64,000 bases of DNA, from IMG/VR virus record IMGVR_UViG_3300025118_004856, positions 1,163 through 65,162 of that record; one strand, 5' to 3'. Below are positions 8,325-33,426 of this stretch, piece by piece. The notes below the pieces were generated by a model that worked only from the letters and a program-made list of their open reading frames with translations, had not been told where the DNA came from and made no database searches. This DNA is from a virus (Duplodnaviria > Caudoviricetes). The translations under genes were made by a program, and so were the position numbers. How positions within the stretch are numbered: position 1 is the stretch's first letter; every line of letters begins with the position of its first letter.

Positions 8325-11300
8325 TATGATAATGGATTATCTAACCCGTTTGAAACGCACCCGGCCATCCACCATGTTCCTCAATTACCTCGTCGATTTC
8401 TTTCATGATGCGGATAGTTTCGTTTAAGGCAACAACTATTTTCTGGTAGTGATTGAGATCTTCCTCGGTTAAAACACGTCCTGGGTTGCCTTTTTTTGGG
8501 CCACGATCTTTGAGCCATTTGTGACAAACCTGGTATCCTCCTATTTCGAAATCCCATATTTCTTGTTTGACACACTTAAAATGATCCACAGAATTAATTA
8601 AAATTTGTTTTTTTATGGAATCATACTTTGGGTAGCCATTTGCTACCTCGCTGTTAATTGCTCCCACATAAATCGCAATCTTTTGTCTAAAAGGATTAAT
8701 TTTGGTGATACCAGAAGCATTCCAGGGCGCATCTTTATAGTTTTCATCGAGAAGATGAAAAGCAACAAGTTCGGCACCTTTAGCCACAAGAGCCCATTTA
8801 AGATCACTTGAACCTGAAATAGGAATTCCAGGATATGTATCCATCAATGCTTGACCATATTTCTCGCGATAAGTTGGGGAATATAATATAGAGTATATAT
8901 AGTAAAAAGCAGCATACGGTGCTATCCATTGTTTATTACTATTCTTAAAGTGTTTTAGGAACGATGGGTCAATATTTGGCATAGGCTTATCATCTGTAGG
9001 TACATTAATCCAAAGGGGGAACATTTGTGTAGATCGATCATGAGAACAGCATTTTTTTTCCCCAGTCCTTCTTGAAACCAGTGCATGTGTAAATAGTTTT
9101 GTTGTTTTTACATGAGGCGTCATTAATACTAGGTTTTCCACACTAAGAATGCTCTCTGTAATTGGTCTAGCTGGAGCATCAAGTATATGAGGTTCGTAGT
9201 AAATGAGACGATAGTCAAAAGGACGATATAATATCGAATGAATTTTATCATCCGAAGTTCCATCATGGAGTAGTCTTCTTTTCGACTTCTCAACATCCCA
9301 CTTTTTTTTAACAGAATACCCAAGTTCCTCCTCTAAAGAGTTGTCTCCTCTGTCCAGTTTAGAGAATCTACTAATTTTGCTTCGAAGTGTCTGCCTATCA
9401 TGATCAATAACCAAACTGTCTCGCGAAGTGATAATGCAGCAGCTATTAATTCGCATTATGCTTCCCAAACCTTGCCAAACGGAGAATTCTTTTGTTGACT
9501 CTGCATCCTCAGGAATAAACTTATAAAATGGTTCTGAGGGATCCAAACTACTTTCAGGGAAATCCACCATGCTTTTATCTTCAACAGCTTTATATTTCTC
9601 TGCTCGATCTCCAAGTAGTCTGCTGTAGCTGCACCAACTCTTGTTTGAATTCATTGATATGGATAAAAACGAGATAGCAACCCCTTGGGAAATATCAAAA
9701 ATATTCTGATCTGCCTTTGCGGAAAATTCTTTTTCTGCCATATGACCACCAAGGTTTAAGAACTTCAATTTATTGAATAAATTGAGGAACGTCCATCTCA
9801 TCCCACGTAATGAACGTGAGCTAAGAAATCCAAAATTAGAAATATAAGAACCGATACCATGTCCGCTTTCGAATATGAGAGAGCTGAGTAACCCAAAAAA
9901 TTTTATGTAGTCGTCTTGTAAATTGAGTTCATGAGCTAGTGCTCCTTTCTCAATAATTCGTTTACCTGCAACATATCGAAAAGGCTTTATAAGAGAAACA
10001 GCAGCATCAGAAAGGTTAGCTGACATGACTGAATACGGAGGATTTCCTATAACCACTGTAAATCTAAGATTCCGCTTGATAGCATTCACTGCCTTCGCCT
10101 CATGCGCTAACGCAGGAATTTCAAAGACAAAGGTGTCTGAGAAATCCTGTGGTGGCTCAAGTGCGTTGGTCAGGTACACTCTCACTCGCTCTTCGCTGCC
10201 AAAGCAGTAGCCGGTCTCGTAAAGCTTGAGCCCGATCTTAAGATGTGCAATAGCGTAGGGTGCCATTAGCAGCTCGTAGCCGTACAAACGTGGCAGAAGG
10301 TACTTTGGAACGTACTCATTCCAGAGCTTATCGGTCTTCTTCTTGCTGTGGCCTTCGGCCTGCCACTTCTCGGTCATCGTTTTGTGGATGAGGTCGATCA
10401 CTTCTACTAAAAAGGTACCAGTACCAGTTGCGGGATCGAGAATCTGAACGAAGGGCTGATCCTTGGTTGCTCCCTCGGGAATATAGAGGTCGTCGTGGAG
10501 TTTGGTCATTTCGCCCCAGGTGATCGTGTCTGCAAGGCCATCTTCAAGACTGAACTTGGTGCGCAGCAGCTCGTCAACCGAGCGGACGATGAAGGAGACT
10601 ACAGGTCGGGGGGTATAAAACACTCCGCGCTGCATTCGTTTTTTGGCATCGTACTCCTTGAGGAAGAGCTCATAAAAGTGTATGACCGGGTCTTCCTGAG
10701 GGTTTCTGTCCCCAAAGTCCCGGACAATTGCTTCCATGTGAGTATTAGGGTTATTCAACAACTCCACTACCTCATTTACCCCGAGTTCGTCAAAGTCGAC
10801 GTCAGCACTAAGCTTGGTCCTATCGCTTTTTTCACCGACAGAAAGGAAAGTTTCCATCAGGTCTTTGAGGAAGGGATTTGTGATAGGAATCTGATCTAAG
10901 AAGTCATCTGCTGTGCTAGGTTTCGGGTTTGTAATTCGTGAAGAAAGCAGACCATAAGCAATAGTCTGTGCATACATATCAGCGAAACTGTCCTCATCTA
11001 AATCGTGAATAAGGGCTTTCTTAACTGCCTTCATTAGCATTCGGCGAGGACCGTTCTCTGTTTCAATGGATAGTACATCGTTGATACATGCTCGAATACT
11101 CTGTGCAAGTTTAGCAAGCCTTATGAACAAGGACTTAGACGTATTGATTACCTCTAAATGCTGCAATGTAAAAGCCGATGTCCATGTTTTTCGCCAAGTG
11201 TCTATATCATTTTCATCCTCTGGCCAAGTAAGTTTTGAGTGAAGTTCATCTGAAACATTATCAAGATGTAGAGGAGTATCTAAGTTATCCCATCCCAAAA

Positions 11301-12231
11301 CTTTTAGAGTAGGAAGAGATTTCTTGTTTACGTTTTGCGAAAAGTGCGCAAGGCTTATTCTTCGTTCTTCGCTTTCTCCATAGTTAGAGATGAAGAGTAA
11401 ATCGTTCATACTCCAAGCGGGTCTTTCTGAGACATTAGCAGAAGCACGCTTCCTAAATACAACTCGGCTAAGAATCCTCCGTAGGGCTACGACTGGGAGT
11501 CTTTTAGGCTCAAACTTGACAAAAAAGATAGCCCAAGGTGGTTGGTTAGGCACTAATGGTCTTAGACGTCTAATCTCCTTAATCTTAGCAGCATTTTTTC
11601 TATCGATTCCCAGTTCTTCAGGAGTATAGTCAAAGGTTAAGTCCTCAAAATTATCAGAACTGATAGGCCAATCGAGTTCGTCGTGGAGATACTTAATAAG
11701 TTGTGGGAACGCTCTAACATCTTTTAGCAAATCACGATGGTTTGGAGCCATTTATTACTCCTCGTTGAGTTCCATCCAGGCTTTAAGAATAGGTTTCACA
11801 TCTATAGGAGCATCAACACGTTTAAGATACGTATTTTTGATATGCTTTAGAACCTTTATCCGAATCTCTATTAGAGTTTTCTGGTCAGCAACGCACTTAC
11901 GTGGCGTGTTAGGTTTAGATCGAATACTCTGGATGATTTCGCCGGGTTCTTCGAGAATTACCCCTTTGTCAATGTCATAAAGATACCATCGGGTTGTTCC
12001 TGCCTCCTCGGTGAACTGTTCTTTTTCCTTATCCAGGGCAGGTAGGACGTAACAAAAAAAGACTCCATAAGTACCCTTAGCTGGGCGTTTCCGCCCACTG
12101 AATATGGAACCAGGAAGACCGCCAAGATACTTATCAAGATCAGGATTTTCCTTGAGCAACTTTTGATATTCAAGATGCATTCCCTCTACTGCTGTCTTCT
12201 TTCCTTCATAGGCATGGTTAAATTCTTTTTT
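8325..12231 (-). other. 3.9 kb foreign insertion of R-M DNA
   Basis: Visibly higher GC than flanks; starts mid-gene; flanks rejoin into one ORF; no transposase or inverted repeats. Confidence 0.75.
8341..11751 (-). CDS. N6-adenine DNA methyltransferase with C-terminal specificity domain (type IIG / type ISP-like)
   Basis: GVFYTP, LDPATGTGTF (motif I), IGNPPY (motif IV), C-terminal WDFEIGGYQVCHKWLKDR. Confidence 0.9.
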   Translation of the reverse strand: MAPNHRDLLKDVRAFPQLIKYLHDELDWPISSDNFEDLTFDYTPEELGIDRKNAAKIKEIRRLRPLVPNQPPWAIFFVKFEPKRLPVVALRRILSRVVFRKRASANVSERPAWSMNDLLFISNYGESEERRISLAHFSQNVNKKSLPTLKVLGWDNLDTPLHLDNVSDELHSKLTWPEDENDIDTWRKTWTSAFTLQHLEVINTSKSLFIRLAKLAQSIRACINDVLSIETENGPRRMLMKAVKKALIHDLDEDSFADMYAQTIAYGLLSSRITNPKPSTADDFLDQIPITNPFLKDLMETFLSVGEKSDRTKLSADVDFDELGVNEVVELLNNPNTHMEAIVRDFGDRNPQEDPVIHFYELFLKEYDAKKRMQRGVFYTPRPVVSFIVRSVDELLRTKFSLEDGLADTITWGEMTKLHDDLYIPEGATKDQPFVQILDPATGTGTFLVEVIDLIHKTMTEKWQAEGHSKKKTDKLWNEYVPKYLLPRLYGYELLMAPYAIAHLKIGLKLYETGYCFGSEERVRVYLTNALEPPQDFSDTFVFEIPALAHEAKAVNAIKRNLRFTVVIGNPPYSVMSANLSDAAVSLIKPFRYVAGKRIIEKGALAHELNLQDDYIKFFGLLSSLIFESGHGIGSYISNFGFLSSRSLRGMRWTFLNLFNKLKFLNLGGHMAEKEFSAKADQNIFDISQGVAISFLSISMNSNKSWCSYSRLLGDRAEKYKAVEDKSMVDFPESSLDPSEPFYKFIPEDAESTKEFSVWQGLGSIMRINSCCIITSRDSLVIDHDRQTLRSKISRFSKLDRGDNSLEEELGYSVKKKWDVEKSKRRLLHDGTSDDKIHSILYRPFDYRLIYYEPHILDAPARPITESILSVENLVLMTPHVKTTKLFTHALVSRRTGEKKCCSHDRSTQMFPLWINVPTDDKPMPNIDPSFLKHFKNSNKQWIAPYAAFYYIYSILYSPTYREKYGQALMDTYPGIPISGSSDLKWALVAKGAELVAFHLLDENYKDAPWNASGITKINPFRQKIAIYVGAINSEVANGYPKYDSIKKQILINSVDHFKCVKQEIWDFEIGGYQVCHKWLKDRGPKKGNPGRVLTEEDLNHYQKIVVALNETIRIMKEIDEVIEEHGGWPGAFQTG

Positions 12232-12261
12232 TGCTGCCTTTCTTAATTCTTGTGTATTCAT
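11755..12261 (-). pseudogene. chimeric ORF: 10 phage codons fused to C-terminal fragment of an R-M-associated (probably helicase) gene
   Basis: Composition changes after codon 10; remainder resembles, from memory, the tail of helicases that precede such MTases; stop 3 nt before MTase start. Confidence 0.55.
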
Positions 12262-12281
12262 AATTTCTCATAAATAAAAAA

Positions 12282-12550
12282 AGTAGTGGGTGCAAAAAAC
12301 AAAAAGTTCTACGCTATCAGAAAAGAACTCTCAACTGCCTTCTTCAACATATCCGACAGACACCCACTACTCAATAATGTGAGCTTACCACCTAAATTCT
12401 ATTAAAAGAATTTATGACTGCCTTATTCAATATATTCGGCAGACTCCCATTATTAAAATTGCAAGTAATGGGTGCATTAACCGTGTAAATCTTCGCTCAA
12501 AAAGACTTAACATTCCCGCTATTTCAATATATTTCACGGACACCCACTAC
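12282..12550 (-). ncRNA. three tandem ~85 nt three-way-junction RNA units (12282-12371, 12373-12454, 12465-12550)
   Basis: Each has an 11-12 bp closing stem, a short stem with conserved loop RAUAURUUGAA and a variable third hairpin; G-U pairs and compensatory changes on the minus strand. Confidence 0.7.
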
Positions 12551-12613
12551 CTGTTATTTCCTTTAAGAGAAGGCAACGCTTTTTCACATTGTTGTTTGAT
12601 TTTTCCGATTAAG

Positions 12614-12904
12614 CTAATTACTTCTACCGTAGAATACATACCATCCTTTGTTATCTTTTTCTTCTTCTACATGGCAGTTTTCCTTTAGTGCTTGTGGAGT
12701 AGATATTTCACTAAATGCTTGTACTGCGGCCACATACGCTTTATAAAAATCATCATTCAATTTCTCACTTTGAACACCATCAATCTTTAACATGAAAGCG
12801 TAACCTCCAAGACACCTATAAATTTTACAAAAACCCAAATCTATGCTTACACTACCATGTGTGCTAATCGTAATAAGGCATGGACTATTTTCTAAAATTA
12901 ACAT
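12614..12904 (-). CDS. hypothetical protein
   Basis: 96 aa ORF, co-oriented. Confidence 0.6.
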   Translation of the reverse strand: MLILENSPCLITISTHGSVSIDLGFCKIYRCLGGYAFMLKIDGVQSEKLNDDFYKAYVAAVQAFSEISTPQALKENCHVEEEKDNKGWYVFYGRSN

Positions 12905-12951
12905 TGTTTTCTCTTAATCCTTATACATATCTTTCTTTTCATTCTTATTCT

Positions 12952-13326
12952 TTATTCTTCAGTCTCTTCAGTGAATTTTCTCAAATCATTCTTAGATGGA
13001 TTAGCAAATCTTTCTCTTGCCATATCATGATACTCATTAGATAAATCAAATCCAATATAATCATGACCCAATAACTGTGCTGCTAGTCCAGTCGTACCTG
13101 AACCACTGTAGGGGTCAAGCACTAGACCAGATTCATCCAATACGCCTTGAATACATCTAGAAGGAAGTTGAATTGGGAAAGGTGCAGGATGAGGATTCTT
13201 CATCTCAGGTCCAAACTTCCATACACTTGTATAATTAACTGACCTTCTAGTATGATCATACTTTTTTAAATAGGTTCTTAGCCTGTTATCTAAGGCTAAA
13301 TTTCTTGATGTTAATAAACTTTGCAT
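12952..13326 (-). pseudogene. C-terminal fragment of a beta-class N4/N6 DNA methyltransferase fused to unrelated sequence
   Basis: SVW...HPAPFP, VLDPYSGSGTT (motif I), YIGFD; catalytic (S/D)PPY half absent. Confidence 0.8.
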
Positions 13327-13502
13327 ACGGCTAATATTGTCCTTTGAATACCTATCTTGATTCTCATAAAAAGTTCTCCGTTAACCTTACCAAAAGCAAA
13401 CTGACTACCATCTATCTTTTCCGTAATTTCTACTTCATCATCAAAAATGTTAGAAATGTAGTCTGTACCAATTGCAAATATTTTTGGAAATGCATTAATC
13501 AT
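13311..13502 (-). pseudogene. truncated RNA ligase (Rnl2-like nucleotidyltransferase), N-terminus only
   Basis: FPKI...ITEKIDGSQF (KxDG motif I); similarity lost after ELFMR (~13362). Confidence 0.75.
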
Positions 13503-14466
13503 TTTTATTCTCCTTATACCAATCTATAGTTTTCCTCATACCATCATAAATATTATTCCAAGAACGATATCCTAAAAGTTTATAAATTTTATCCATATTT
13601 AACAATCTCTTTTTAACTGTTGATGGTTTACCTTTTGAGTGTTTAATGTTTTTCTTTTTCACACCCATCATATCTAATATCTTATTAACACTGAAACCCT
13701 CTCCATAACCTACATTAAAAATATCAAACTTGTCTACCTTTTCCGTTAATGCTAAAACATCTCTTACAAAATCATCTACATAAATAAAATCCCTTACATC
13801 CTCACCATCTCCCCACACTTCAAACGGATTCTGACCATCGCAATATTTTTTAATCAATGCAGCCATTACATGGGAAGTATCAGGATTGAAGTCATCATAA
13901 GGACCATATACATTACTCGGTCTAACAATTAAACACTGCATAGGATTTTTTACTTTTGTGGAATAAAACTCACACAGCTTTTCTACATACCGTTTCATGT
14001 GAGCCACTCCAAAATAACAATCTGGAGGATCAGACAAATAACCTTCTGCTTCTAAAAAGCTTCTATCATTATTAATTACCAACTCTGGATAAACAGCACC
14101 ACTACTTATAAATACAAACTTTTTTACCCCAGCTTTATGAGCTGCATCCAGAAGATAAGTATTCATAACTGTATTATCAGTTACCAAAGCTGCAGGATTC
14201 TCATTCATAAACTTTGCACCATGCGTCACAGCTGCACAATGTATAATTATATCCATTTCTTCGACTACATCTTCACAATCTCTTTTTTTAGTTAAATCTC
14301 TATACATAAGAAATGCTTTGATAGTTGGATCTTGTAAAACATTGTTGTTAATAACACAATATAAATCACAACCCATTAACTGTTCCAATTTTAAAAGCAC
14401 ATTAGTTCCGATAAAGCCACTTGCTCCTGTTACCAATACTTTTTTACCTTTAAAATAATCACTCAT
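13495..14466 (-). CDS. NAD-dependent epimerase/reductase, GDP-fucose synthase-like
   Basis: GASGFIG, YxxxxK region, RPSNVYGPYDDF, SHVMAALI, VWGDGEDVRDFIYVDD. Confidence 0.88.
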   Translation of the reverse strand: MSDYFKGKKVLVTGASGFIGTNVLLKLEQLMGCDLYCVINNNVLQDPTIKAFLMYRDLTKKRDCEDVVEEMDIIIHCAAVTHGAKFMNENPAALVTDNTVMNTYLLDAAHKAGVKKFVFISSGAVYPELVINNDRSFLEAEGYLSDPPDCYFGVAHMKRYVEKLCEFYSTKVKNPMQCLIVRPSNVYGPYDDFNPDTSHVMAALIKKYCDGQNPFEVWGDGEDVRDFIYVDDFVRDVLALTEKVDKFDIFNVGYGEGFSVNKILDMMGVKKKNIKHSKGKPSTVKKRLLNMDKIYKLLGYRSWNNIYDGMRKTIDWYKENKND

Positions 14467-14732
14467 TTCTGTTCACCCCAAATATTTTTTGTAACCCAAT
14501 CACACCACTTCACAACTATCTCTTTATCAAGCCCAGTAGCTTCATCAATCATTTTTTCTATTGGTGACCGATTAACTAAAACTGCAATATCAATCCCAGT
14601 ATCTTCTTTAAATGCTTTTGTTATTCCTTCTACCCCAGAAGACGCTGATACACAGCTCAACCAAGCCTCTGTCATAATATTATCTCCATACGGAATTGAC
14701 TTCATACCTTTAACTGGTTTTTTCATTTTCAC
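14463..14732 (-). CDS. hypothetical protein
   Basis: 89 aa ORF overlapping both neighbours. Confidence 0.65.
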   Translation of the reverse strand: MKMKKPVKGMKSIPYGDNIMTEAWLSCVSASSGVEGITKAFKEDTGIDIAVLVNRSPIEKMIDEATGLDKEIVVKWCDWVTKNIWGEQK

Positions 14733-15261
14733 ACCATTCTATATTATCATCTCGTTTAGATAAAATTATTTCTTCTTTCCTAACTGGCCATCTTATATTA
14801 AATAAAGGTTCATCAAACCTATAAGTAAACTGCATCTCCTTACCTTCATAATAAGACGATTGTTTATAATGAAATATAGCTGTATCACTCATAACTAAAT
14901 GAGCATTTCCATAACACGGAGGTATTAATATCTGCTCCCTTCTTTTTTCAGATAGCATAAAACCTTCCCAAAACCCAAATTTATCAGATGTTTCATCACA
15001 ATTCACAACTACTAAATAAAATTCCCCATACAAACAAGATACTAATTTCCATGTTTTGTTATCCCCATGGATTCCTCGTAAGACATTTTTTCTTGAAACT
15101 GATATATCATCCTGAACAAAATTATCAAAATCTACTAAATATCCTAACTTGCCACCGTATCGCTGCCTATTATAAATTTCTATATATTCACCTCTATGAT
15201 CTATAAAAGGATCAAGTAATATTCTTTTTACTCCATCAAGTGTTGTGTCTTCTACTTTCAT
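14710..15261 (-). CDS. RmlC-like NDP-sugar 3,5-epimerase
   Basis: DHRG, FVQDDISVS, VLRGIH, GNAH cupin motifs. Confidence 0.9.
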   Translation of the reverse strand: MKVEDTTLDGVKRILLDPFIDHRGEYIEIYNRQRYGGKLGYLVDFDNFVQDDISVSRKNVLRGIHGDNKTWKLVSCLYGEFYLVVVNCDETSDKFGFWEGFMLSEKRREQILIPPCYGNAHLVMSDTAIFHYKQSSYYEGKEMQFTYRFDEPLFNIRWPVRKEEIILSKRDDNIEWCENEKTS

Positions 15262-16316
15262 CTAAAATAATTTTTCCTCAATTTGTATTCGTTTTGATTT
15301 TCCATATACCAATTCCAAGTCTTTTCTAATCCTAACTTTAACGAAGTTAAAAAGTTATACCCCAATTCGTGCCTTGCTAAAGAAATATCTAAAACTCTTT
15401 TTGAAGGTTTTGATTTCTCTTCACTAAAATTATACTCAAAACCGATAATATCTTTTAAAGTTTCTACTAATTCTTTTATACTTATCCCTTCACCTCCACC
15501 GAGATTATAAAATGGTAAAGTATAATCAGTCATTAATGCCAAAATAATCCCTTGTGCGATATCTTCACTATAGCAAAAATCCCTTATAGCAGTGCCGTCA
15601 CCTAAAACTATTATTGGAGGATGAGTAAGATTATTTTCCTCTTTATATTTTAATATTTTAGACATTAATGACGGAATTACCATTGCATTATCAGCATCAA
15701 AGTTATCTCCTTCACCATATACATTACCAAGTCTTACAAACTTATAATCTACTAACCCATGTTGAATTTTGTAAGTCATTATCTGATGCTCTCCCATTCT
15801 CTTAGCCCACCCAGGATACTCGTCCATAGGTGGCAAAGGAGTATCATCACTCTCTTTAAAAACTTCTAATGGCTTATACAAATCATATCCTTCAAGTTGA
15901 TCTATTATCTTAAAAGCTGGATAAGCACCTATACTGCTTGTATAAATTAATTTCTCTACATTTGCTCTCCTACTCGCTTCAAGTACATTAGTGTTCATTT
16001 GAAGTAAAGGTACAAAGAAAGATGCTGGTTTTTCTTTCGTTACCTTTGGGCTTCCTTTTATACCAGCAGTATGAAATACATAATGAATATTGTGCTGTTT
16101 TAACAATTCGTAGAAACCACTAAAATCTGATAAATCTCCATATCTATAAATTACTTTTTTGTTCAAATTTTGAATCTTATCTAATGACACTGATACTACA
16201 TGAGCAGAGGTATTCTCAACTAACAAATCACAAATTTTTCGTCCGATCATTCCGGTTCCACCTGTAATTAATACATTTTTCTTATTAAACTTTTCCCAAA
16301 TTTCTTTTTTTATCAT
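15258..16316 (-). CDS. NAD-dependent epimerase/reductase, GDP-fucose synthase-like
   Basis: GGTGMIG, SSIGAYP, GWAKR, NVYGEGDNF, GDGTAIRDF. Confidence 0.88.
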   Translation of the reverse strand: MIKKEIWEKFNKKNVLITGGTGMIGRKICDLLVENTSAHVVSVSLDKIQNLNKKVIYRYGDLSDFSGFYELLKQHNIHYVFHTAGIKGSPKVTKEKPASFFVPLLQMNTNVLEASRRANVEKLIYTSSIGAYPAFKIIDQLEGYDLYKPLEVFKESDDTPLPPMDEYPGWAKRMGEHQIMTYKIQHGLVDYKFVRLGNVYGEGDNFDADNAMVIPSLMSKILKYKEENNLTHPPIIVLGDGTAIRDFCYSEDIAQGIILALMTDYTLPFYNLGGGEGISIKELVETLKDIIGFEYNFSEEKSKPSKRVLDISLARHELGYNFLTSLKLGLEKTWNWYMENQNEYKLRKNYFR

Positions 16317-16466
16317 ACAACCTCTCTTAAAATATCCATACCAGCAAAGCTATCACACCAACAAAAGGTAAACTAATAATAGATAATATTGATAAACAAA
16401 CTAATATTATAAATAATACAATACCAACAACCATTCCAATCTCTAACAATGTTTCAAAAAAATAAT

Positions 16467-23033: not shown

Positions 23034-23048
23034 TTCACCCTCCTTTCT

Positions 23049-24230: not shown

Positions 24231-24236
24231 TTATTA

Positions 24237-24437
24237 TTACTCCTTAAAAATTATACTCCCGACATTCAATAATAAATCACCTTCTAATAACTTTAAATTT
24301 TTATCATTGATACAATTCTTCAAATTATCTCTGGGACTTCGCCATCTACATAATCCATAAACAATATGTTCTTCATTTAAAGCTAAAATATACTCAGCAA
24401 GAAAACTCCCAACAAACCCAGTTGTCCCCGTTATCAA
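24237..24437 (-). pseudogene. truncated paralog of the 4,6-dehydratase
   Basis: First ~55 aa align with 23049..24077 (GFVGS.LAE.IL, VYGLCRWRS, EGDLL), then unrelated tail. Confidence 0.85.
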
Positions 24438-25438
24438 AATTCGACTCCTTTATATTTTCCTTTCCTCGGCATAAAACTGTCTTCAATATCATTCCAAACT
24501 TCTATCGTTCTAATATTAATAGAATCTCTCAATTTATCATCGCCACTAATTACTTCAAAAGCCTTATCAATATCAACAATTTTTTTATCTTTATTTTTTT
24601 TCATTGGCAATTTAATACCATCTAATCCATTGTCAACAGAAGACAAATAATTTATTGATGCCTCTATATCATTGATACCATACCGATACAAAATAGGAAA
24701 TTCGCATTCTCTTAAAGGCAACCCCACCTTATTCTTCTTACATCTCGCCCTAACTCTTCTACCTATTATCTTTTTAATTCCTCTTTTAGTTTTAACTATT
24801 CCTCCAGTATCATGTAACCAAAGAACTTGAGAGGCATAAAAATCCATTGCTCTCCCACCTGATCGTTTTTGTTTTTCTCCAAACATAGCCCCTATCTTAT
24901 CTCTTAATTGAGAAAGTACCATAAAATGAGTTTGACTTTTATTAATATTTGAAGTTAATTTCCTAAATAAAGAAGACATCCTTTCTGCTCTTCTTGCTCC
25001 ATGAAATCCTGACTCATCAAAATCACACCTGATTTCTTCAGAAGATTCTAAAGCATCAAGAGAATCTAAAACGTAAAATTTAGGTCTGTGTAACTCTTTC
25101 TTAACCACATCTAATAAATTTGTAAATAAACCACCAATAGTAAATACATTCTCAATAAAATGCACCTTGTCTAAAGGAACTCCAATTGCTTCAGCATTAG
25201 TAAAATTAAATGCTGATTCGGATTCATGATAAATAATTTGTCCTTTAGGATATTTAAAAGCAAAATTAGCACAAGCCTCCATCGCTAACAGAGTTTTCCC
25301 GCTACTTTTATCGCCAACCACATTGCTAATTCTACCTAAAGGAAACCCCCCACCTAAAGTACAATCCAACACAGCACATCCGGAAGAGATAAAATCAAAT
25401 TCTGGTTTAGACTTTTTTACTTTTATTCCTTTTTTCAT
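24434..25438 (-). CDS. recA: RecA/UvsX-like recombinase
   Basis: GGFPLGRI, GDKSSGKT, LDSLDAL, SQLRDKIG, SGGRAMDFYAS, KKNKV. Confidence 0.93.
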   Translation of the reverse strand: MKKGIKVKKSKPEFDFISSGCAVLDCTLGGGFPLGRISNVVGDKSSGKTLLAMEACANFAFKYPKGQIIYHESESAFNFTNAEAIGVPLDKVHFIENVFTIGGLFTNLLDVVKKELHRPKFYVLDSLDALESSEEIRCDFDESGFHGARRAERMSSLFRKLTSNINKSQTHFMVLSQLRDKIGAMFGEKQKRSGGRAMDFYASQVLWLHDTGGIVKTKRGIKKIIGRRVRARCKKNKVGLPLRECEFPILYRYGINDIEASINYLSSVDNGLDGIKLPMKKNKDKKIVDIDKAFEVISGDDKLRDSINIRTIEVWNDIEDSFMPRKGKYKGVEF

Positions 25439-26341
25439 TTATCTTCCGCTCCTTACCTTTCGTTTCAATCTATCTCTAACAGACTCTTTTTCAGATTCTG
25501 TATCTTCTGGTTCACTACTTCTACTTTGTCTTGAACTCCTTCTTGTAGGAGGGGAATGATCTGGCACGTCTTCCTCTGGCTCTTCAGAATCTGCATCTTG
25601 TCTTGAATGACTTTCAGACTCTTTCTCTTCTTCCTCTTCTACTCCACCACCAAAAAAATCAGCCTTCAATGTATCATACGTTGGCTCATCAGCAAGCACA
25701 TCAGCAAAAGATACTAACTGATCTTCCCACTCATTAGATCCTATCTCTGAAGATTCTCTTTCTACAAAAGCCTTATACTTCGTGTGCATCCCTTTACCCT
25801 CTTTTGTCACTACAATATCATACCCGTTATCAATGTTAGCAATATCAATAGTAATGTTTTTTCTCTTATCCTCCATCTGATCAAAAATATCTACCGCCAC
25901 CTGCCATCTTGACGCTGCATAAAGTTGAACTCCCTTTTTCTCATCCTCCCGATCAATAATGAAAAACAAGGTCTTTGCTCCAGGTTTAAATTGATTACAT
26001 ACTTTATCCTCTTCTCCCGCATCCTTAAGATTTTCATACTCTTCGCATACTGGGCAAGGACTTACTGAAGAATTCTTTGGAGACATCTCTTTTGGGCATA
26101 AAAAATATTTCTTGCTTTGAGGATTATAATGTATCCAAATATGACACCAGATATTAAAATCTTTATCACAAGAAGGTAAAATCCTTATGTAATTATCTCC
26201 CTCTTTAGGTGTCCATAATTCAATGTCATCAGGTAAATCCAAATAAAAAGTTCCTCCATCTTTTACATTCTCCGCCCTCACGCTTTCAGGATTTGCCCCA
26301 TAAAACTTTCTTCTTTTAGCCATTCCTTTCCTCCTTTTCAT
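25439..26341 (-). CDS. single-stranded DNA-binding protein (gp32-like); likely start 26323
   Basis: IRILP, H/C/CPVC zinc ligands, GYDI...GKG..TKY, acidic tail; next to recA. Confidence 0.8.
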   Translation of the reverse strand: MKRRKGMAKRRKFYGANPESVRAENVKDGGTFYLDLPDDIELWTPKEGDNYIRILPSCDKDFNIWCHIWIHYNPQSKKYFLCPKEMSPKNSSVSPCPVCEEYENLKDAGEEDKVCNQFKPGAKTLFFIIDREDEKKGVQLYAASRWQVAVDIFDQMEDKRKNITIDIANIDNGYDIVVTKEGKGMHTKYKAFVERESSEIGSNEWEDQLVSFADVLADEPTYDTLKADFFGGGVEEEEEKESESHSRQDADSEEPEEDVPDHSPPTRRSSRQSRSSEPEDTESEKESVRDRLKRKVRSGR

Positions 26342-30246: not shown

Positions 30247-31335
30247 TTAACCTACAAGACTAACAAGAATATCAATTTTAGAATCTTCCGCAATAAAATA
30301 CAAAACTTTAGCCTTACCAGAATCAACAACACCAAATTTATCACTAATTTTACTACAAGAAAATAATGATGGAATAAATACTTCTACTTCATCCTTTATT
30401 TTACAACCCTTAACCTCTACCTTCTCATTTAAATGACTGAACGATTTATTATCTAAATCGAACTCAACGCCACCCTTATCAAATTTTAATGAGCAATTCT
30501 TGTCTATCAATCCTTGGCTAACTAAATTTATTCTTTCAAAACAATCTAAGAATTCATCAACTATATTTATAACATCAGTTTTTAAATGTTTTTTAAATGA
30601 AGTAAACGTACCTTTACAATCAGGAAACTTAACATCTGGAATAGAATGAATAACCTCAACCTTATTTCCTTTTGTCCCATAAGCAGTAATAAAATTATCA
30701 AACACTTCTATTGTTTCTAATTCTGAAATCAACCGTATTAACTCAATACAAAAAGATTTAGGAATAAAAATATCAGATTTCAAATCTAATTTAATTTTGG
30801 CTCTTGAAATAATTCTACCATTTGTAGCATATATATAATCTGAAGTAGCTAATAAACCTATATAATGCGGAAATAATTGATCATCACCAGTAAAAGGTAA
30901 TAAATCTCTAACAGCCTTAATAAATTTTTCTGTTATAATTAAAGTAGTAGTTGGCTTATCATTCTCACCAATAACAGGACAATTAAAATCCTTTGCGGGC
31001 AACCCCTGCAATTTATTAACAGATTTCCCAGAAGTAATAGTCACCAAATTATCTTTATTAGTTTTAAATTTTATATCTTTTTTTAATGTTGAAACAAATC
31101 TGTACAAAAAATCTCCTGGCACAGCCAAATCAAAATCCACATCTGTATCCGCTCCAACATAGAGCTCACCATTATAAGCTTCAACTCTTTTATCATTAAA
31201 ACAAAAATGAGTTAATATAGGAGAATACGGTTTATTTGAGCCTCCAATAATCCATTCGGCACAATATCTATTCCAAGGTATAGATAAAGCAGGTCTTACT
31301 AAATTTAATGATGCTAATAAATCAGCTGTTTTCAT
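30247..31335 (-). CDS. sliding clamp (DnaN-like)
   Basis: ~360 aa, PILTHFCF, YATNG, FIP, FP motifs; beside polymerase and loader. Confidence 0.75.
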   Translation of the reverse strand: MKTADLLASLNLVRPALSIPWNRYCAEWIIGGSNKPYSPILTHFCFNDKRVEAYNGELYVGADTDVDFDLAVPGDFLYRFVSTLKKDIKFKTNKDNLVTITSGKSVNKLQGLPAKDFNCPVIGENDKPTTTLIITEKFIKAVRDLLPFTGDDQLFPHYIGLLATSDYIYATNGRIISRAKIKLDLKSDIFIPKSFCIELIRLISELETIEVFDNFITAYGTKGNKVEVIHSIPDVKFPDCKGTFTSFKKHLKTDVINIVDEFLDCFERINLVSQGLIDKNCSLKFDKGGVEFDLDNKSFSHLNEKVEVKGCKIKDEVEVFIPSLFSCSKISDKFGVVDSGKAKVLYFIAEDSKIDILVSLVG

Positions 31336-31487
31336 TTAATTCCTTTCGAATAAAGTTTTATTAATTTTCTTATACCATTTTTATTAACACGTCCAGAATC
31401 CACAAAAGACGTTAATATTTTAGCATCATTTTCACGTAACATTTTAGCCCTTGTTAATCTATGAACAAATGCAAAATATATTTTCAC
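31332..31487 (-). CDS. small protein resembling the N-terminus of phage TGT/DpdA-like proteins
   Basis: GTG start; MKIYFA...LTSFVDSG; directly after queE remnant. Confidence 0.45.
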   Translation of the reverse strand: MKIYFAFVHRLTRAKMLRENDAKILTSFVDSGRVNKNGIRKLIKLYSKGIK

Positions 31488-31725
31488 TCCATATTTACCA
31501 ACTTATGTAATTGAACACTTACAACTGGGTATAAAATATTATACTCACCCATTAAACCCATTAATTGTCTACATGAAAACATATTTAAAACTGGAGAAAA
31601 AGCAACATTTGCATGATCTGGGAAAAGCCAATGAATTACCGATACCGCTTTTACAAAATCTTTATGATCTTGAATAACAAATTTTACCCAATCATCTTTA
31701 TGCAGAGCTGTTTTGAATATCTCAT
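31484..31725 (-). pseudogene. queE: C-terminal remnant of QueE (7-carboxy-7-deazaguanine synthase)
   Basis: DWVKFVIQDHKDF...FSPV...SVQLHK matches the QueE C-terminal pattern; radical SAM CxxxCxxC half missing. Confidence 0.75.
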
Positions 31726-32680
31726 CTTTCTTAATCCCAGAAGTAGAAAGCGCATAATACCTTTTAATTTGAGGATTGTTTTTAATTTTTCTTTCAACAA
31801 TGTCCGTTACCAGCTGCAATGATATTTCTTTTCCTGGTCCATGTTTTACCTCAACAGACTCAACAATATTATCTTCTCCGTCCAATATGTCAATATCTCC
31901 AGCCGCATGTTTGTCAGGGCCTGTATGTCTTCCTATTTCCATTGTTTTATTGTGATAACGATTAATCTCTTTCATCAAGCACTCATAAATAGCCGCTATT
32001 GCAAGCACTGGAAGTCTAGCAGCACCATGTGTATGATCTGTATAACTATAGTAAAAATGCTTTTGTAATGCCGAGATAATTATATTAATACTTGGCTCTA
32101 CTTCAGAAGCAACCAACGAAGGGATTTTTTTTATTGATGACAATATATGATCCATCTGCAATATTATTCTACAAAAAAGCGCAAGGAGATAATCTTTGGG
32201 GTTCTTTCCTTTTTCATTAATATCATTTAAAATTTGCAGGAAAGCTTTTTTTAGTTTTTCAGGTGATATTTTACCAGGGTAACTGAGGTTATATGGTTCT
32301 GGCTGTTCCAGGCTTCTAGTGAGCCAACCGGACTCAACCATGTAAGGGAAAATATGCTTGCCATCCATGGTGATTTTTTTCAGTGCTGGTGTAATATATG
32401 CTGTATCAATGGTCCGTCCGGAAAATCCCTCCGCAAGTTGCTGCTGATGATACCTTACGTCTTGAGATTCGTTTTTTATTTTATACGTCAATAGAGTTAT
32501 AAGTACCGTTGTTACTGCTTTACGTTTATAGCAATATTCTGCAACAATATCTAAACAGTTATTGGCATGGAAGGAAAGACGCTTATTAATAGAGTTCCCA
32601 TTATCGATTTCTCTTTCGCTGTGTGCCTCTCCGTATATTTCCAATACAAACTTGCCATAGTCAAATGCCATTACAGTCAC
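31484..32680 (-). CDS. type II restriction endonuclease (PD-(D/E)XK), C-terminally truncated and fused in frame to the QueE remnant
   Basis: FSGRTIDT, ESGWLTRSLEQ, GDIDI...VEVKHG; preceded by Dcm fragments. Confidence 0.7.
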   Translation of the reverse strand: MTVMAFDYGKFVLEIYGEAHSEREIDNGNSINKRLSFHANNCLDIVAEYCYKRKAVTTVLITLLTYKIKNESQDVRYHQQQLAEGFSGRTIDTAYITPALKKITMDGKHIFPYMVESGWLTRSLEQPEPYNLSYPGKISPEKLKKAFLQILNDINEKGKNPKDYLLALFCRIILQMDHILSSIKKIPSLVASEVEPSINIIISALQKHFYYSYTDHTHGAARLPVLAIAAIYECLMKEINRYHNKTMEIGRHTGPDKHAAGDIDILDGEDNIVESVEVKHGPGKEISLQLVTDIVERKIKNNPQIKRYYALSTSGIKKDEIFKTALHKDDWVKFVIQDHKDFVKAVSVIHWLFPDHANVAFSPVLNMFSCRQLMGLMGEYNILYPVVSVQLHKLVNME

Positions 32681-32873
32681 TCACTTAAATATTTAAAATA
32701 GTTGAACTCATTTTCCCATACCCTCTTGGAAAGGGATAACAGGACATAAAATATCCCTTTTCGATTGTTCTGTTTGTATAAGAAGATCTTAAATCAAATC
32801 TCATATTCCAAATTTCTTGGATAAACTCTTTTTTTTGATTTTCTTTTCCATTCAAATTGTTTGATGGATGCGA

Positions 32874-33005
32874 TAATGTTTCCGAAAATACTTTTTCAAT
32901 TTCAACACACGCTAAAATATCAAAGCCTGCCTGGTGGAATCCTATATCTAGCCCACCAGCTCCAGAAAACAAAGAAAGGGTTCTAATTTGACATTTTGTG
33001 GCCAT
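32874..33005 (-). pseudogene. C5-cytosine DNA methyltransferase N-terminal fragment 2
   Basis: TLSLFSGAGGLDIGF (motif I), CVEIE (motif II); no PCQ motif follows. Confidence 0.85.
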
Positions 33006-33066
33006 AACATCCAACTCCCCCTGAACTGAAAAGTGTGACATATGTAAGTTCCTTGTTCTTCAGCAT
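33001..33066 (-). pseudogene. C5-cytosine DNA methyltransferase N-terminal fragment 1 (different frame, not in ORF track)
   Basis: MLKNKELTYVTLFSSGGVGCYG, a motif I variant. Confidence 0.7.
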
Positions 33067-33096
33067 ATCGTCTTATTACCCAAATAAGAATATATT

Positions 33097-33426
33097 TTAT
33101 TGAACTCTTGACCTCTTCAAAGTTCTTGTTTTGGTTCCGCTTTTCTTTTCGCCTTTTGCACTTTTTTTAGATTTCTTTTTTGCTGTAGTTTTTGCCATTT
33201 TCTTTTCCTCCTTTCTAATAATTTTTGTTTTAACTTTTGTTATTGTAACCTCCTTTCCATTTGTTAAATCTTTACAGGTAATATGGTATGCTTCACAATC
33301 CTCCCAACAATGAGCGCAGCATTTATCACTTTCCAAATAACCCACACCAAATGAAGGGCATGGATCTTCTATACCATGTTTATGACTTAATTCCTCATTC
33401 AATTTTTTTATTTCACTAACTTCCAT
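33097..33426 (-). CDS. Cys-rich, basic-tailed protein; 3' end likely cut by insertion near 33130
   Basis: C-x-CC-C-C-C cluster then Lys-rich linker ending abruptly. Confidence 0.6.
   Translation of the reverse strand: MEVSEIKKLNEELSHKHGIEDPCPSFGVGYLESDKCCAHCWEDCEAYHITCKDLTNGKEVTITKVKTKIIRKEEKKMAKTTAKKKSKKSAKGEKKSGTKTRTLKRSRVQ

What the first reader, a model, noticed from the sequence alone, without database searches (positions are those of the whole stretch)
8325..33135. Repeated, transposase-free capture of restriction-modification DNA at three separate sites
Seen: the three clearly foreign patches (8325-12231, ~12964-13361, ~31725-33135) all contain R-M DNA, lie in the phage's coding orientation, break a resident gene and lack terminal repeats, integrase or transposase. 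Together they hold pieces of four different MTases (type IIG/ISP-like N6, beta-class N4/N6, two C5) and one REase. Only one MTase is intact. Inference: the lineage serially acquires MTases by illegitimate or microhomology recombination as anti-restriction protection and later deletes them, leaving layered fossils. The encoded SbcCD-like nuclease, RecA and SMARCAL1-like helicase are candidate agents, which is speculative.
Basis: partly seen in the sequence, partly recalled or inferred. Interest (0 to 1): 0.85.

Follow-up and report, generated by a model that had tools for sequence, protein, structure and literature searches.

The report
Phage loci swapping DNA-modification genes
A marine phage carries a freshly inserted bacterial DNA-methylase gene plus the wreckage of older methylase and restriction genes at two swap-prone sites, one of which replaced a whole DNA-hypermodification pathway; it is a clear natural example of a known way in which phages evolve against host defences.

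Summary
All three patches are absent from close relatives and contain restriction-modification (R-M) or methylase DNA. No transposase, integrase or flanking repeats were found.

- **Patch 1 (8322-12228, 3907 bp, 41.5% GC against about 32%).** It holds the last ~157 codons of a bacterial PLD-nuclease/SNF2-helicase gene and a full-length 1136-aa type-ISP-like N6-methylase/specificity protein. It sits inside a 55-codon phage ORF, with at most 1 nt shared at the joint. Other marine metagenomes hold the uninterrupted ORF, an allele lacking the ORF, and methylase copies with internal deletions.
- **Patch 2 (12957-13250).** This is a dead fragment of a cyanophage-type beta-class methylase.
- **Patch 3 (31731-33118).** This is a replacement, not a simple insertion. 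In a close relative the site holds 4.8 kb encoding a full 7-deazaguanine DNA-modification cluster (QueC, two DpdA-like, FolE, QueD, QueE). The window has an internally deleted C5 methylase and a SacI-family endonuclease, cut ~70 residues short and fused in frame to the QueE tail.

Serial capture by illegitimate recombination followed by deletion is well supported. The anti-restriction function and the proposed recombination agents are untested. This is a new member of a known kind, and unusually well documented.

The parts
8322..12228 (-). Patch 1: 3907-bp captured bacterial DNA inserted inside a small phage ORF
   Evidence: Joint 8321->12229 (skips 3907, 1 shared nt) in runs X3 and X4. Logan contigs of X1 span both ends. 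GC 41.5%. Absent from L003 and L004.
8341..11751 (-). Full-length 1136-aa type-ISP-like protein: nuclease-like N-domain, helical region, gamma-class N6 methylase (DPATGTG and NPPY motifs present), Type_ISP_C specificity domain
   Evidence: Pfam PF02384 and PF18135; PADLOC PDLC03610 at 4e-159. 99-100% coverage of 1108-1150-aa homologues. LlaBIII, LlaGI and DrdV matched over residues 434-1011. N-domain.
11755..12261 (-). Chimeric 168-aa ORF: 11 codons of the phage small ORF (12261-12229) fused in frame to the last ~157 codons of a donor PLD-nuclease/SNF2-helicase gene (12228-11755)
   Evidence: tblastn to the region just upstream of the methylase in 6 of 8 loci. The upstream gene is 1046-1066 aa, with PLDc_2, ResIII/SNF2 and Helicase_C. 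Alignment.
8187..8321 (-). 3' part (44 codons + stop) of the interrupted 55-codon phage ORF ('orfX')
   Evidence: In frame with 12261-12229 across the joint seen in X3 and X4. No homologue in the other fetched loci.
7178..8185 (-). Resident GHMP-family sugar kinase. The ancestral ATG position reads ATA (8185-8183). The frame is open from 8200, and the first canonical start is at 7942.
12957..13250 (-). Patch 2: fragment of a beta-class N4/N6 methylase (about residues 148-242 of a 258-aa cyanophage-type enzyme). It lacks the SPPY motif that sits at residues 28-31 of that enzyme.
   Evidence: Pfam PF01555, positions 133-220 of 221. 74% identity to the Prochlorococcus phage P-TIM68 methylase. Loose ends at 12957 and 13250 in 4 of 4 runs, with depth 143-217 in three of them (18 in X5).
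13311..13502 (-). 63-aa N-terminal remnant of a resident gene with a KxDG-type motif (putative RNA ligase). Only the first 11 codons are shared with relative L003.
   Evidence: Pfam RNA_ligase at E 0.016, below cut-off. phrog_20735 at E 5e-4..
12614..12904 (-). 96-aa ORF of unknown function, absent from L003
   Evidence: No family hit. No homologue in the fetched loci.
12283..12550 (-). Two full copies and one partial copy of a ~90-nt stem-loop element ending in a U-run (12283-12370, 12404-12457, 12465-12550). L003 has one copy at the same place.
   Evidence: Folding z about -4 for all three sequences folded. No Rfam family.
31731..33118 (-). Patch 3: 1388-bp R-M remnant that replaces 4846 bp present in relative L020
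   Evidence: boundaries. (content of L020).
31484..32680 (-). 398-aa in-frame fusion. A SacI-family endonuclease (residues 1 to ~316 of about 370-389, D...ExK core kept) is joined to the last ~88 residues of QueE. The joint lies near 31730-31745, with a TTCTGG 6-mer shared by both parents.
   Evidence: NCBIfam TIGR03963 on residues 300-395. The identical protein occurs on 7 contigs, the longest 76,110 bp.
32685..33041 (-). 118-aa C5 cytosine methylase with an internal in-frame deletion (N-terminal motif I region + C-terminal ~35-47 residues; about 500 residues missing)
   Evidence: Pfam PF00145 on residues 19-66. Aligns to residues 4-81 and 573-606 of a 628-aa methylase. Homologues are 608-660 aa or longer.
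32986..33066 (-). 27-codon ORF with a motif-I-like string; a possible remnant of a second C5 methylase (weak)
   Evidence: No Pfam hit. phmmer E >= 0.68. Two unannotated phage records at E 3e-4 and 2e-3.
33097..33426 (-). Resident 109-aa gene truncated at its 3' end by patch 3. Homologues are 161-163 aa in L020 and L022, and 124 aa in L023.

Best explanation
The window is part of a marine phage genome (an IMG/VR contig, about 46% complete). It has two hypervariable accessory sites where DNA-modification genes are gained, swapped and eroded without any dedicated mobile-element machinery.

**Site A (between a sugar epimerase and a GHMP kinase).**
- A 3.9-kb piece of a bacterial two-gene R-M system was joined end to end into a 55-codon phage ORF. 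That system consists of a PLD-nuclease/SNF2-helicase gene followed by a methylase-specificity gene.
- The piece keeps the whole methylase-specificity gene but only the last 15% of the helicase-nuclease gene.
- The in-frame fusion to the phage ORF keeps the donor's stop/start spacing of 3 nt. The methylase can therefore be translated from the phage operon.
- Inferred: the enzyme methylates adenine at its target sites on phage DNA and protects it from the cognate host system.
- Next to it lie older remnants: a cyanophage-type methylase fragment and a ligase-like stub.

**Site B (between a 109-aa gene and the sliding clamp).**
- An ancestral 7-deazaguanine (dPreQ0-type) DNA-modification cluster was replaced by a C5-methylase/SacI-like R-M cassette.
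- The cassette's endonuclease was cut short at the joint. Its methylase later lost its core by an internal deletion.

In both captures the junction falls inside the restriction gene. This is what selection for a methylase without its toxic partner would leave behind.
For: **Shown: insertion of patch 1.**
- L003 and L004 lack it.
- Joints 8110->12272 (depth 85 in X3, 107 in X4) and 8321->12229 (18.7 and 37.5) occur in two runs from other samples and studies.
- In X1, Logan contigs cover 6000-8347 and 8513-12565 at flat depth of 51-60.
- The exact chimeric 168-aa ORF occurs on 6 contigs from JGI, Logan and ENA.

**Shown: donor architecture.**
- The 168-aa ORF matches the end of the gene just upstream of the methylase in 6 of 8 loci.
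- Two of those upstream genes were scanned, and both have PLDc_2, ResIII/SNF2 and Helicase_C.

**Shown: the methylase gene is whole.** It covers 99-100% of 1108-1150-aa homologues, and the DPATGTG and NPPY motifs are present.

**Shown: decay.** 520-aa in-frame deletion forms exist, and depth is zero over 8709-10213 in X3 and X4. The C5 methylase is internally deleted.

**Shown: site B.**
- L020 holds QueC (E 1e-63), FolE (2e-69), PTPS/QueD (1e-32), a QueE-like rSAM protein (phrog_2076, 7e-38) and two phrog_887 transglycosylase-like proteins.
- The window keeps only the QueE tail, 77% identical over 94 residues.
- No QueC, TGT, PTPS or FolE match was found in the 65-kb contig.
- Other relatives hold Vsr-dCMP deaminase + ThyX (L022) or a ParB-like + PAPS-reductase/DUF3440 pair (L023) at the same site.

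**Inferred.** The protective function, translational coupling and the selection filter.
Against: - X1 may be the sample the contig was assembled from. In X3 and X4 no listed contig bridges a patch-1 end by 31 nt or more, and the key joints have a shorter side of 29-30 nt, at the tool's caution limit.
- There is no methylation data, and neither the host nor a donor is identified. The best homologue is 66% identical, and no DNA-level donor was found in the phage or plasmid collections.
- The 1136-aa protein has a nuclease-like N-domain with family-conserved D50 and E81-x-K83. It may therefore not be a methylase only.
- For patch 3 there is no pre-replacement allele on a near-identical backbone. 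Identity to relatives falls to 69-83% beside the site, so the replacement could have occurred in another phage and been imported.
- For patch 2, insertion in the window and deletion in the relative cannot be told apart.
- The kinase downstream of patch 1 has lost its canonical start. This cost is not explained.
Confidence: 0.75

Rival explanations
1. The patches are artefacts: chimeric joins made by the metagenome assembler or by amplification.
For: The record is a metagenome-assembled contig. Patch 2 lies in a region where contigs of all four runs branch.
Against: The junction-bearing ORFs occur with identical sequence on 5-7 contigs from several pipelines. A second assembler (Logan) reproduces both patch-1 ends at flat depth. 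Both fusions are in frame. Alternative alleles occur in other samples.
Confidence: 0.02
2. The patches are ancestral phage genes, and the relatives are the ones that lost them by deletion.
For: Direction cannot be decided for patch 2 or the ligase stub. L003 keeps an even shorter ligase remnant.
Against: - Patch 1 starts in mid-gene of a helicase and has foreign GC.
- Its removal restores an open 55-codon ORF exactly.
- Patch 3 is bounded by truncated resident genes (QueE and the 109-aa gene). These cannot be ancestral to the full genes in L020.
Confidence: 0.05
3. The illegitimate joins arose elsewhere. The window lineage received ready-made mosaic alleles from co-infecting phages by homologous recombination in the conserved flanks. 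This is allele exchange at hotspots, possibly helped by the repeated stem-loop elements, as with PeSL cassettes in T4-type phages.
For: - Identity to relatives is mosaic (69-100%) and falls towards site B on both sides.
- Four different gene sets occupy site B in four relatives.
- The patch-2 fragment is closest to a cyanophage gene.
- Stem-loop elements are duplicated beside site A.
- PeSL-mediated shuffling is described in PMC2839356 (abstract read).
Against: - Patch 1 has its empty-site allele on flanks that match the window without differences in X3 and X4 (records 10, 11, 13, 14: 0 other letters). This speaks for an in-lineage event.
- No promoter-like site beside the elements stood out (10 found against 15.4 expected).
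- This does not exclude illegitimate joining as the origin; it only moves it elsewhere.
Confidence: 0.3
4. The captured 1136-aa gene is a self-contained type IIG/IIL-like restriction-modification enzyme (nuclease + methylase + specificity domain). The phage uses it offensively against host or rival DNA as well as for self-methylation.
For: - PADLOC files it under REase_MTase_IIG.
- The N-terminal 430 residues are collinear with DrdV (Foldseek E 1.5e-3; VIA Z 6.4 over residues 5-407). Residues 13-198 align to the BpuSI N-terminal domain at Z 4.0.
- D50 is invariant, and E81, P82 and K83 are nearly invariant, in 44 sequences.
Against: - All fold scores are below the tool's own caution level (Z < 8), and model pLDDT is 72.
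- In bacteria the gene is accompanied by a PLD-nuclease/helicase gene in 6 of 8 loci. This suggests that cleavage needs the partner, which the phage lacks.
Confidence: 0.15
5. A dedicated mobile element (transposon, integron-like cassette, or homing endonuclease or intron) moved the patches.
For: The window does encode an HNH/NUMOD3 homing-type endonuclease at 20728-21405.
Against: - It is more than 7 kb from any patch.
- No transposase, integrase or HNH domain was found in or beside the patches.
- There are no terminal repeats or target duplication, and 1 nt at most is shared at the patch-1 joint.
Confidence: 0.03

Closest known systems
Phage-encoded orphan DNA methyltransferases acquired from R-M systems (general concept, recalled; papers using the term came up in the listing but were not read)
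   Same: A methylase gene without a working restriction partner, in a lytic-type phage genome, in the phage's own transcription direction.
   Different: Here the capture event itself is visible. The donor's neighbouring gene stub, the empty-site allele and the deletion derivatives all survive in natural populations. The captured protein is a 1136-aa methylase-specificity subunit, not a small type II methylase.
[quoted passage not shown]
   Same: The gamma-class N6 methylase and the Type_ISP_C specificity domain match by sequence (E 1e-18 and 3e-18). The helical region before the methylase aligns at Z 7.8 and 6.6.
   Different: Type ISP enzymes are single chains with an Mrr nuclease and an SF2 ATPase. 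The donor system here is two genes with a PLD nuclease fused to an SNF2-type ATPase. The phage has only the second gene.
Type IIL/IIG enzymes such as DrdV (PDB 7lo5) and BpuSI (3s1s)
   Same: Best PDB sequence match (DrdV, E 5e-27). Same order of N-domain, methylase and specificity domain. PADLOC class REase_MTase_IIG.
   Different: Nuclease activity of the N-domain is not shown. The bacterial homologues come with a helicase-nuclease partner, which type IIL/IIG enzymes do not need (the last point is recalled).
Phage 7-deazaguanine DNA modification clusters (Hutinet et al. 2019, PMC6884629; 2023, PMC10516641; abstracts seen in the listing)
   Same: Relative L020 has FolE, QueD, QueE, QueC and two DpdA-like genes in one block, the gene set those papers describe as protecting phage DNA from restriction.
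   Different: In the window the cluster is gone except for the last ~88 codons of QueE, which are fused to a restriction-enzyme gene. I did not search for, and do not know of, a described case of such a cluster being replaced by an R-M cassette.
Hyperplastic regions and PeSL cassettes of T4-type phages (Arbiol et al. 2010, PMC2839356; abstract and outline read)
   Same: Insertions, deletions and replacements concentrate at a few sites rich in non-essential genes. A terminator-like stem-loop element is repeated beside site A.
   Different: The patch-1 joint is not at the repeated element but inside a small ORF, with at most 1 nt of shared sequence. No promoter part was recognised.
SacI-type R-M systems (Pfam PF09566 endonuclease with a C5 methylase)
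   Same: Methylase gene directly followed by the endonuclease gene. 40-48% identity to PF09566-bearing proteins. Some homologues are fused to PF00145.
   Different: Both genes are broken. Pfam itself did not score the window protein. Specificity is unknown.

Membership tests
Type ISP R-M enzyme | Single polypeptide carrying nuclease, SF2 ATPase, coupler, methylase and specificity domains | tested here: not met
   The window protein has no ATPase domain. In bacterial relatives the ATPase is a separate upstream gene.
Type ISP R-M enzyme | Mrr-family nuclease | tested here: not met
   The partner genes scanned (2 of 6) carry PLDc_2 / RE_NgoFVII PLD domains instead.
Type ISP R-M enzyme | Gamma-class N6-adenine methylase followed by a Type_ISP_C specificity domain | tested here: met
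   PF02384 and PF18135 (E 1.5e-63). LlaBIII and LlaGI matched.
Type IIG/IIL R-M enzyme | N-terminal PD-(D/E)XK nuclease domain in the same chain as the methylase | tested here: inconclusive
   Conserved D50 and E81-x-K83. DrdV at Foldseek E 1.5e-3 and BpuSI at Z 4.0, all below the caution level.
Type IIG/IIL R-M enzyme | DNA cleavage by the single protein | not testable with these tools
   Needs a biochemical assay.
Orphan (solitary) phage methyltransferase | Complete methylase gene with catalytic motifs and no functional cognate restriction gene in the genome | tested here: met
   Full length, with motifs DPATGTG and NPPY. The partner is reduced to 157 codons without PLD or ATPase motifs. Only 46% of the genome is in hand.
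Orphan (solitary) phage methyltransferase | Methylation of phage DNA | not testable with these tools
   Needs methylome sequencing.
SacI restriction endonuclease family (PF09566) | Full-length homology to family members | tested here: not met
   Homology covers residues ~7-316 and stops ~70 residues before the end of 379-389-aa homologues. The rest is QueE.
C5 cytosine methyltransferase (PF00145) | Catalytic core between motif I and the C-terminal motifs | tested here: not met
   Only residues 19-66 match Pfam positions 1-48 of 324. Alignment to a 628-aa homologue skips its residues 82-572.
Beta-class N4/N6 methyltransferase (PF01555) | The catalytic (D/S)PPY motif (its catalytic role is recalled, not from a call) | tested here: not met
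   Only profile positions 133-220 of 221 are present. The SPPY of the P-TIM68 homologue lies at residues 28-31, outside the retained part.
QueE (7-carboxy-7-deazaguanine synthase) | Radical-SAM cluster-binding CxxxCxxC region | tested here: not met
   The window keeps only the C-terminal ~88 residues. The relative's gene has the motif and PF04055.
Transposon / integrative element | Transposase or integrase gene, terminal repeats, target-site duplication | tested here: not met
   No such domain. No flanking repeats stand out from the other short repeat pairs listed. 1 nt shared at the joint.

The most novel reading that the evidence does not exclude
This phage group keeps dedicated 'DNA-modification swap sites'. 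There, alternative anti-restriction strategies replace one another in natural populations: 7-deazaguanine hypermodification, captured methylases, thymidylate/dCMP-pathway genes, and ParB-like/PAPS-reductase pairs. Captures of host R-M DNA survive only when the crossover cuts the restriction gene. The window shows this filter twice: the helicase-nuclease is cut at its 3' end, and the SacI-like enzyme is cut ~70 residues short. On this reading, loss of a costly hypermodification pathway and its replacement by simple methylation is an ongoing, observable trade-off in the sea. The three co-existing allelic states of patch 1 would let the rate and mechanism of host-gene capture be measured directly.
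Probability: 0.3. Interest if true: 0.65.

Novelty: new member of a known kind. Interest (0 to 1): 0.5.

Why it matters
How phages pick up host methylases is usually inferred from end products. Here the empty site, the fresh insertion with its donor-gene stub, and deletion derivatives co-occur in public marine metagenomes. The join is blunt (at most 1 nt), and the later deletions use about 4 nt of microhomology, which constrains the mechanism.

The case also links two anti-restriction strategies at a single locus. A complete 7-deazaguanine cluster in one phage corresponds to R-M wreckage in its relative. Whether phages trade hypermodification for methylation therefore becomes testable.

It also points to a widespread, uncharacterised two-gene relative of type ISP enzymes (PLD-nuclease/SNF2 ATPase plus methylase-specificity protein). 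The search for homologues of the methylase-specificity protein returned 7961 proteins with E <= 1e-10 among the 8000 candidates scored.

Tried and rejected
- **DNA-level donors of patch 1.** None in 'phages'. Only a 169-nt match at 69% in one plasmid. megablast of 6000-26000 against phages found nothing.
- **Relatives spanning patch 3.**
  - The viral-contig scans with clamp and polymerase gave only the contig that ends inside QueE; the scan with primase found no relative.
  - The metagenome scan with the clamp alignment found nothing.
  - G002 is too diverged or rearranged to help.
  - The primase scan finally gave L020-L023.
  - Records behind L020-L023 are not held for the genome search, so site A of those phages could not be read.
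- **Rfam.** The whole window gave only tRNAs, and no family for the stem-loop element.
- **GAGCTC (the SacI site) depletion.** 3 found against 5.9 expected; 96 of 100 shuffles had at least 3. No signal.
- **Second C5 fragment.** No Pfam hit. phmmer against the 370 proteins held gave E >= 0.68. BLASTP to a C5 methylase was not significant. The matching unannotated phage record has no clear ORF at the match.
- **Tail of the 118-aa ORF as a second SacI remnant.** Rejected (E 0.4-1). It is the methylase's own C-terminus.
- **PDB sequence search with the SacI-like fusion.** No match.
- **Fold of the N-terminal 430 residues.** Only middling matches.
- **Promoter and terminator scan of site A.** Not above shuffles.
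- **The pattern search for the stem-loop element across loci** missed L003, because its loop exceeds the gap I allowed.
- **Not used.** Supplements of papers were not consulted. No complex prediction was run.

Full report
**What the window is.** The window is bases 1163-65162 of a 65,162-bp linear IMG/VR virus record, rated 46% complete. All sizeable ORFs lie on the - strand. GC is about 31-33%, with strong negative GC skew.

The genes include:
- a UDG-PolA-type polymerase, clamp, clamp loader, primase, DnaB-like helicase, RecA, a gp32-like protein, SbcCD-like proteins and an SNF2 helicase;
- tail genes;
- a long run of nucleotide-sugar enzymes.

No cultured phage is close to it. Runs that hold the sequence are marine metagenomes.

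**Checking the observation.**
- The 1136-aa ORF has N6_Mtase and Type_ISP_C, with PADLOC REase_MTase_IIG at 4e-159.
- The 124-aa ORF is the C-terminal part of an N4/N6 methylase.
- The 118-aa ORF starts like a C5 methylase.
- The first ~316 residues of the 398-aa ORF match a large family of 366-389-aa proteins that carry PF09566, the SacI endonuclease domain. Its last ~88 residues are QueE.

No transposase, integrase or homing-endonuclease domain lies in or next to a patch. No flanking repeats stand out from the other short repeat pairs listed.

**Site A: relatives.** A 38.7-kb IMG/VR contig (L002, L003, L016) is collinear with the window at 70-98% nucleotide identity.
- In that contig, window 12270 abuts 8185. 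Everything between is missing there.
- Window 12375-13470 is represented by about 48 nt.
- A more distant relative (L004) joins the epimerase almost directly to the kinase.

**Site A: the donor of patch 1.** In eight bacterial or viral loci that encode a relative of the 1136-aa protein, the 168-aa ORF upstream of it in the window matches the DNA just upstream of the methylase in six. Of the other two, L014 has only 173 nt upstream and L015 is 32% identical.
- In the three loci whose ORFs I listed, that upstream gene is 1046-1066 aa long.
- In the two I scanned, it combines a PLD nuclease domain with a ResIII/SNF2 ATPase and Helicase_C.
- The alignment shows that helicase homology starts at about residue 12 of the 168-aa ORF.

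The phage therefore holds the last ~157 codons of a restriction-type gene and the complete second gene of a two-gene system. The second gene is full length against 1108-1150-aa homologues, has the DPATGTG and NPPY motifs, and matches DrdV, LlaBIII and LlaGI over methylase and specificity domains.

**Site A: population data.** Logan contigs of four marine runs were laid on 6000-15000.

In X1, which may be the source sample, contigs cover 6000-8347 and 8513-12565 with no differences. Depth is flat (51-60) across backbone and patch.

In X3 and X4, which come from other samples and studies, the backbone has depth 30-100 and the patch has 0-10. Three joints appear:
- **8110->12272** (depth 85 in X3, 107 in X4). 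This is the arrangement of relative L003.
- **8321->12229** (depth 18.7 and 37.5, 1 shared nt). Read on the - strand, it links the first 11 codons of the 168-aa ORF in frame to the 44 codons that end at 8187. This gives an uninterrupted 55-codon ORF.
- **8535->11304** (depth about 6). This is a low-depth joint inside the methylase gene.

Patch 1 proper is therefore 8322-12228. It begins in mid-gene of the donor helicase and ends 19 nt after the methylase stop, with no target duplication.

Caveat: the joints have 29-30 nt on their shorter side, and no listed X3 or X4 contig bridges a patch end by 31 nt. That is expected where a de Bruijn graph branches, but it falls short of read-level proof. 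In support, the exact chimeric 168-aa protein is on 6 contigs and the 124-aa protein on 5, from JGI, ENA and Logan.

**Decay of the new gene.** The 90%-identity cluster of the methylase contains two 520-aa members on short contigs.
- They equal residues 1-463 joined to residues 1079-1136, an in-frame loss of 1845 nt (window 8518-10362).
- The two ends share TGGC.
- The same stretch has zero depth over 8709-10213 in X3 and X4, and a contig starts exactly at 10362.

The methylase is thus intact in some populations and gutted in others.

**Patch 2 and its neighbours.**
- The 124-aa ORF is 74% identical to residues ~125-242 of the 258-aa methylase of Prochlorococcus phage P-TIM68. Strong similarity starts at window 13250.
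- All four runs have contigs that match 12957-13250 and then continue differently on both sides. Depth there is 143-217 in three of the runs (18 in X5). Translated by eye, the upstream loose end continues like the P-TIM68 methylase.
- The fragment lacks the N-terminal half, including the SPPY motif, so it cannot be active.
- Upstream lies a 63-aa stub with a KxDG-type motif. Pfam RNA_ligase scores E 0.016, below cut-off. Only its first 11 codons are shared with L003.
- Downstream lie a 96-aa ORF without relatives and 2.5 copies of a ~90-nt stem-loop element.

Whether the window gained or the relative lost this stretch cannot be decided.

**Site B.** The primase scan of metagenome contigs gave four relatives.

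L020 (a 50.6-kb scaffold) has a QueE 100% identical to that of L002, so it is probably the same phage type. DNA homology to the window stops at L020 7347 (window 33119) and resumes at L020 12194 (window 31730). The 4846 bp between encode:
- the last ~50 codons of the 163-aa homologue of the window's 109-aa gene;
- QueC;
- two phrog_887 (queuine tRNA-ribosyltransferase, DpdA-like) proteins;
- a PRTase-FolE fusion;
- QueD;
- several ~51-aa ORFs;
- the first two thirds of QueE.

This is the gene set reported to make 7-deazaguanine-modified phage DNA that resists restriction (abstracts of PMC6884629 and PMC10516641). The window's 65-kb record has no QueC, TGT, PTPS or FolE match, although half the genome is unseen.

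In place of the cluster the window has 1388 bp:
- A 27-codon ORF with a motif-I-like string. This is weak evidence for a second C5 methylase.
- The 118-aa C5 methylase. It aligns to residues 4-81 and 573-606 of a 628-aa homologue, so about 500 residues are deleted in frame.
- The SacI-family gene, immediately after. It is cut ~70 residues before its normal end and fused in frame to QueE. Both parents share TTCTGG near the joint.

The identical fusion protein and the identical 118-aa protein are each on 7 contigs, the longest 76,110 bp.

Other relatives carry other genes at the same site:
- L021 and L022 have a Vsr-dCMP-deaminase fusion, ThyX and a PRA-PH-type pyrophosphatase.
- L023 has a ParB-like protein with a PAPS-reductase/DUF3440 protein.

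Identity between the window and its relatives drops from 95-100% to 69-83% on approaching the site from either side.

**How it most likely works.**
- *Shown:* foreign DNA was joined into the phage without long homology, repeats or a recombinase gene. Later deletions used a few bases of microhomology. Both sites are variable among relatives.
- *Inferred:* the joins are illegitimate (end-joining or template-switch) events during infection. Only those that keep a methylase and disable its restriction partner persist. Both R-M captures have a junction inside the restriction gene.
- *Inferred:* the in-frame fusion of orfX to the helicase stub preserves the donor's 3-nt gap between the stop and the methylase start, so the methylase can ride on the phage's translation.
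- *Inferred:* the methylase marks phage DNA against the cognate host system.
- *Open:* the host; the target motif; whether the conserved D50/E81-x-K83 nuclease-like N-domain is active; and why the kinase downstream tolerates ATA in place of ATG.

It rests only on their presence.

**Comparison with what is known.**
- Phage orphan methylases and accessory-gene hotspots are established ideas. PeSL-mediated shuffling in T4-type phages (PMC2839356, abstract read) is the nearest described mechanism for such sites, and the repeated stem-loop beside site A recalls it. The patch-1 joint itself, however, is not at that element.
- The captured protein is not a type ISP enzyme in the defined sense. It is not a single chain, and it has no Mrr domain and no ATPase. 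It shares their methylase-specificity module.
- It resembles type IIL/IIG enzymes in domain order, with the nuclease question open.

I rate this a new member of a known kind. Its value lies in the completeness of the record (empty site, fresh capture, decay) and in the replacement of a hypermodification cluster by R-M DNA.

**Limits.**
- Patch 3 and the inner joins of patch 2 were not tested with reads, because read laying allowed one call.
- X1 may not be independent of the assembly.
- The literature was seen only as listings and abstracts, plus one outline. Supplements were closed.

Noticed in passing
window 12283-12370, 12404-12457, 12465-12550; L003 11282-11389: A ~90-nt element with an 11-13-bp closing stem (GTAGTGGGTG...CACCCACTAC), inner hairpins and a U-run. 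The window has two full copies and one partial copy; relative L003 has one. It is better conserved than the neighbouring coding DNA (87-91% against ~78%). Folding z is about -4. No Rfam family matches. It could be a complex terminator, a small RNA or a cassette boundary.
   Followed up: partly
window 8183-8200: The GHMP-family kinase has ATA where relatives L003 and L004 have the ATG start. The frame stays open for 81 codons upstream of the first canonical start (7942). Either a non-canonical start is used or the enzyme is N-terminally truncated.
   Followed up: partly
L020 9790-9948, 10835-10990, 11327-11491, 11488-11646, 12440-12595; window 31332-31487: Five ~51-54-aa ORFs, all beginning MKIY-, are interspersed between the deazaguanine-pathway genes of the relative. 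One survives in the window next to the QueE stub. They have no family hits. They may be paralogous small genes or repeated gene-boundary sequences that favour rearrangement.
   Followed up: no
window 4965-7942 and 13495-24077: A large block of nucleotide-sugar and related enzymes sits in a phage replication region: B12-rSAM, nucleotidyltransferase, GHMP kinase, three epimerase/dehydratases, dTDP-sugar isomerase, SDR, FkbM methyltransferase, and transketolase-like E1 alpha and beta. It may serve sugar hypermodification of DNA or alteration of the host surface.
   Followed up: no
window 20728-21405: An HNH + NUMOD3 homing-type endonuclease gene sits between the two halves of the split E1/transketolase-like enzyme (21402-22271 and 19673-20740). 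In the relative, a similar sequence lies elsewhere (L002 8898-9085).
   Followed up: no
window 110-506: A cluster of tRNA genes. ARAGORN finds five (Thr, Pro, Ala, Met and one at 354-426 with an odd anticodon loop, reported as '???'). Rfam confirms four of them at gathering score.
   Followed up: no
L003 9766-10002: The relative's epimerase ORF is preceded in frame by a long (GT)n-type microsatellite that reads as a Gly-Val repeat. The window has nothing like it.
   Followed up: no
L003 10968-11210 against window 13495-13510: The relative has an extra 80-aa ORF between the epimerase and the ligase stub. The ORF ends with the same KENKND-stop and overlapping ATG as the window's epimerase. The insertion is thus bounded by a duplicated gene-end/gene-start sequence, a different kind of joint from patch 1.
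   Followed up: partly
P0001 against window 8341-11751: A 99%-identical variant of the methylase (on 2 contigs) has all 10 of its differences in the last 56 residues. This suggests a small recombinant C-terminal segment.
   Followed up: no
L008 4800-14883: An IMG/VR 'viral' contig carries the complete two-gene system (PLD-SNF2 gene + methylase gene), followed directly by HamA and a DEAD-box helicase, a Hachiman-like pair. This looks like a bacterial defence island or prophage cargo.
   Followed up: no
L006 8444-8800: A distant relative (epimerase 37% identical) encodes a beta-class methylase homologue (31% to the window fragment) about 1.2 kb upstream of its epimerase. Methylase genes therefore recur near this sugar cluster in the group.
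   Followed up: no
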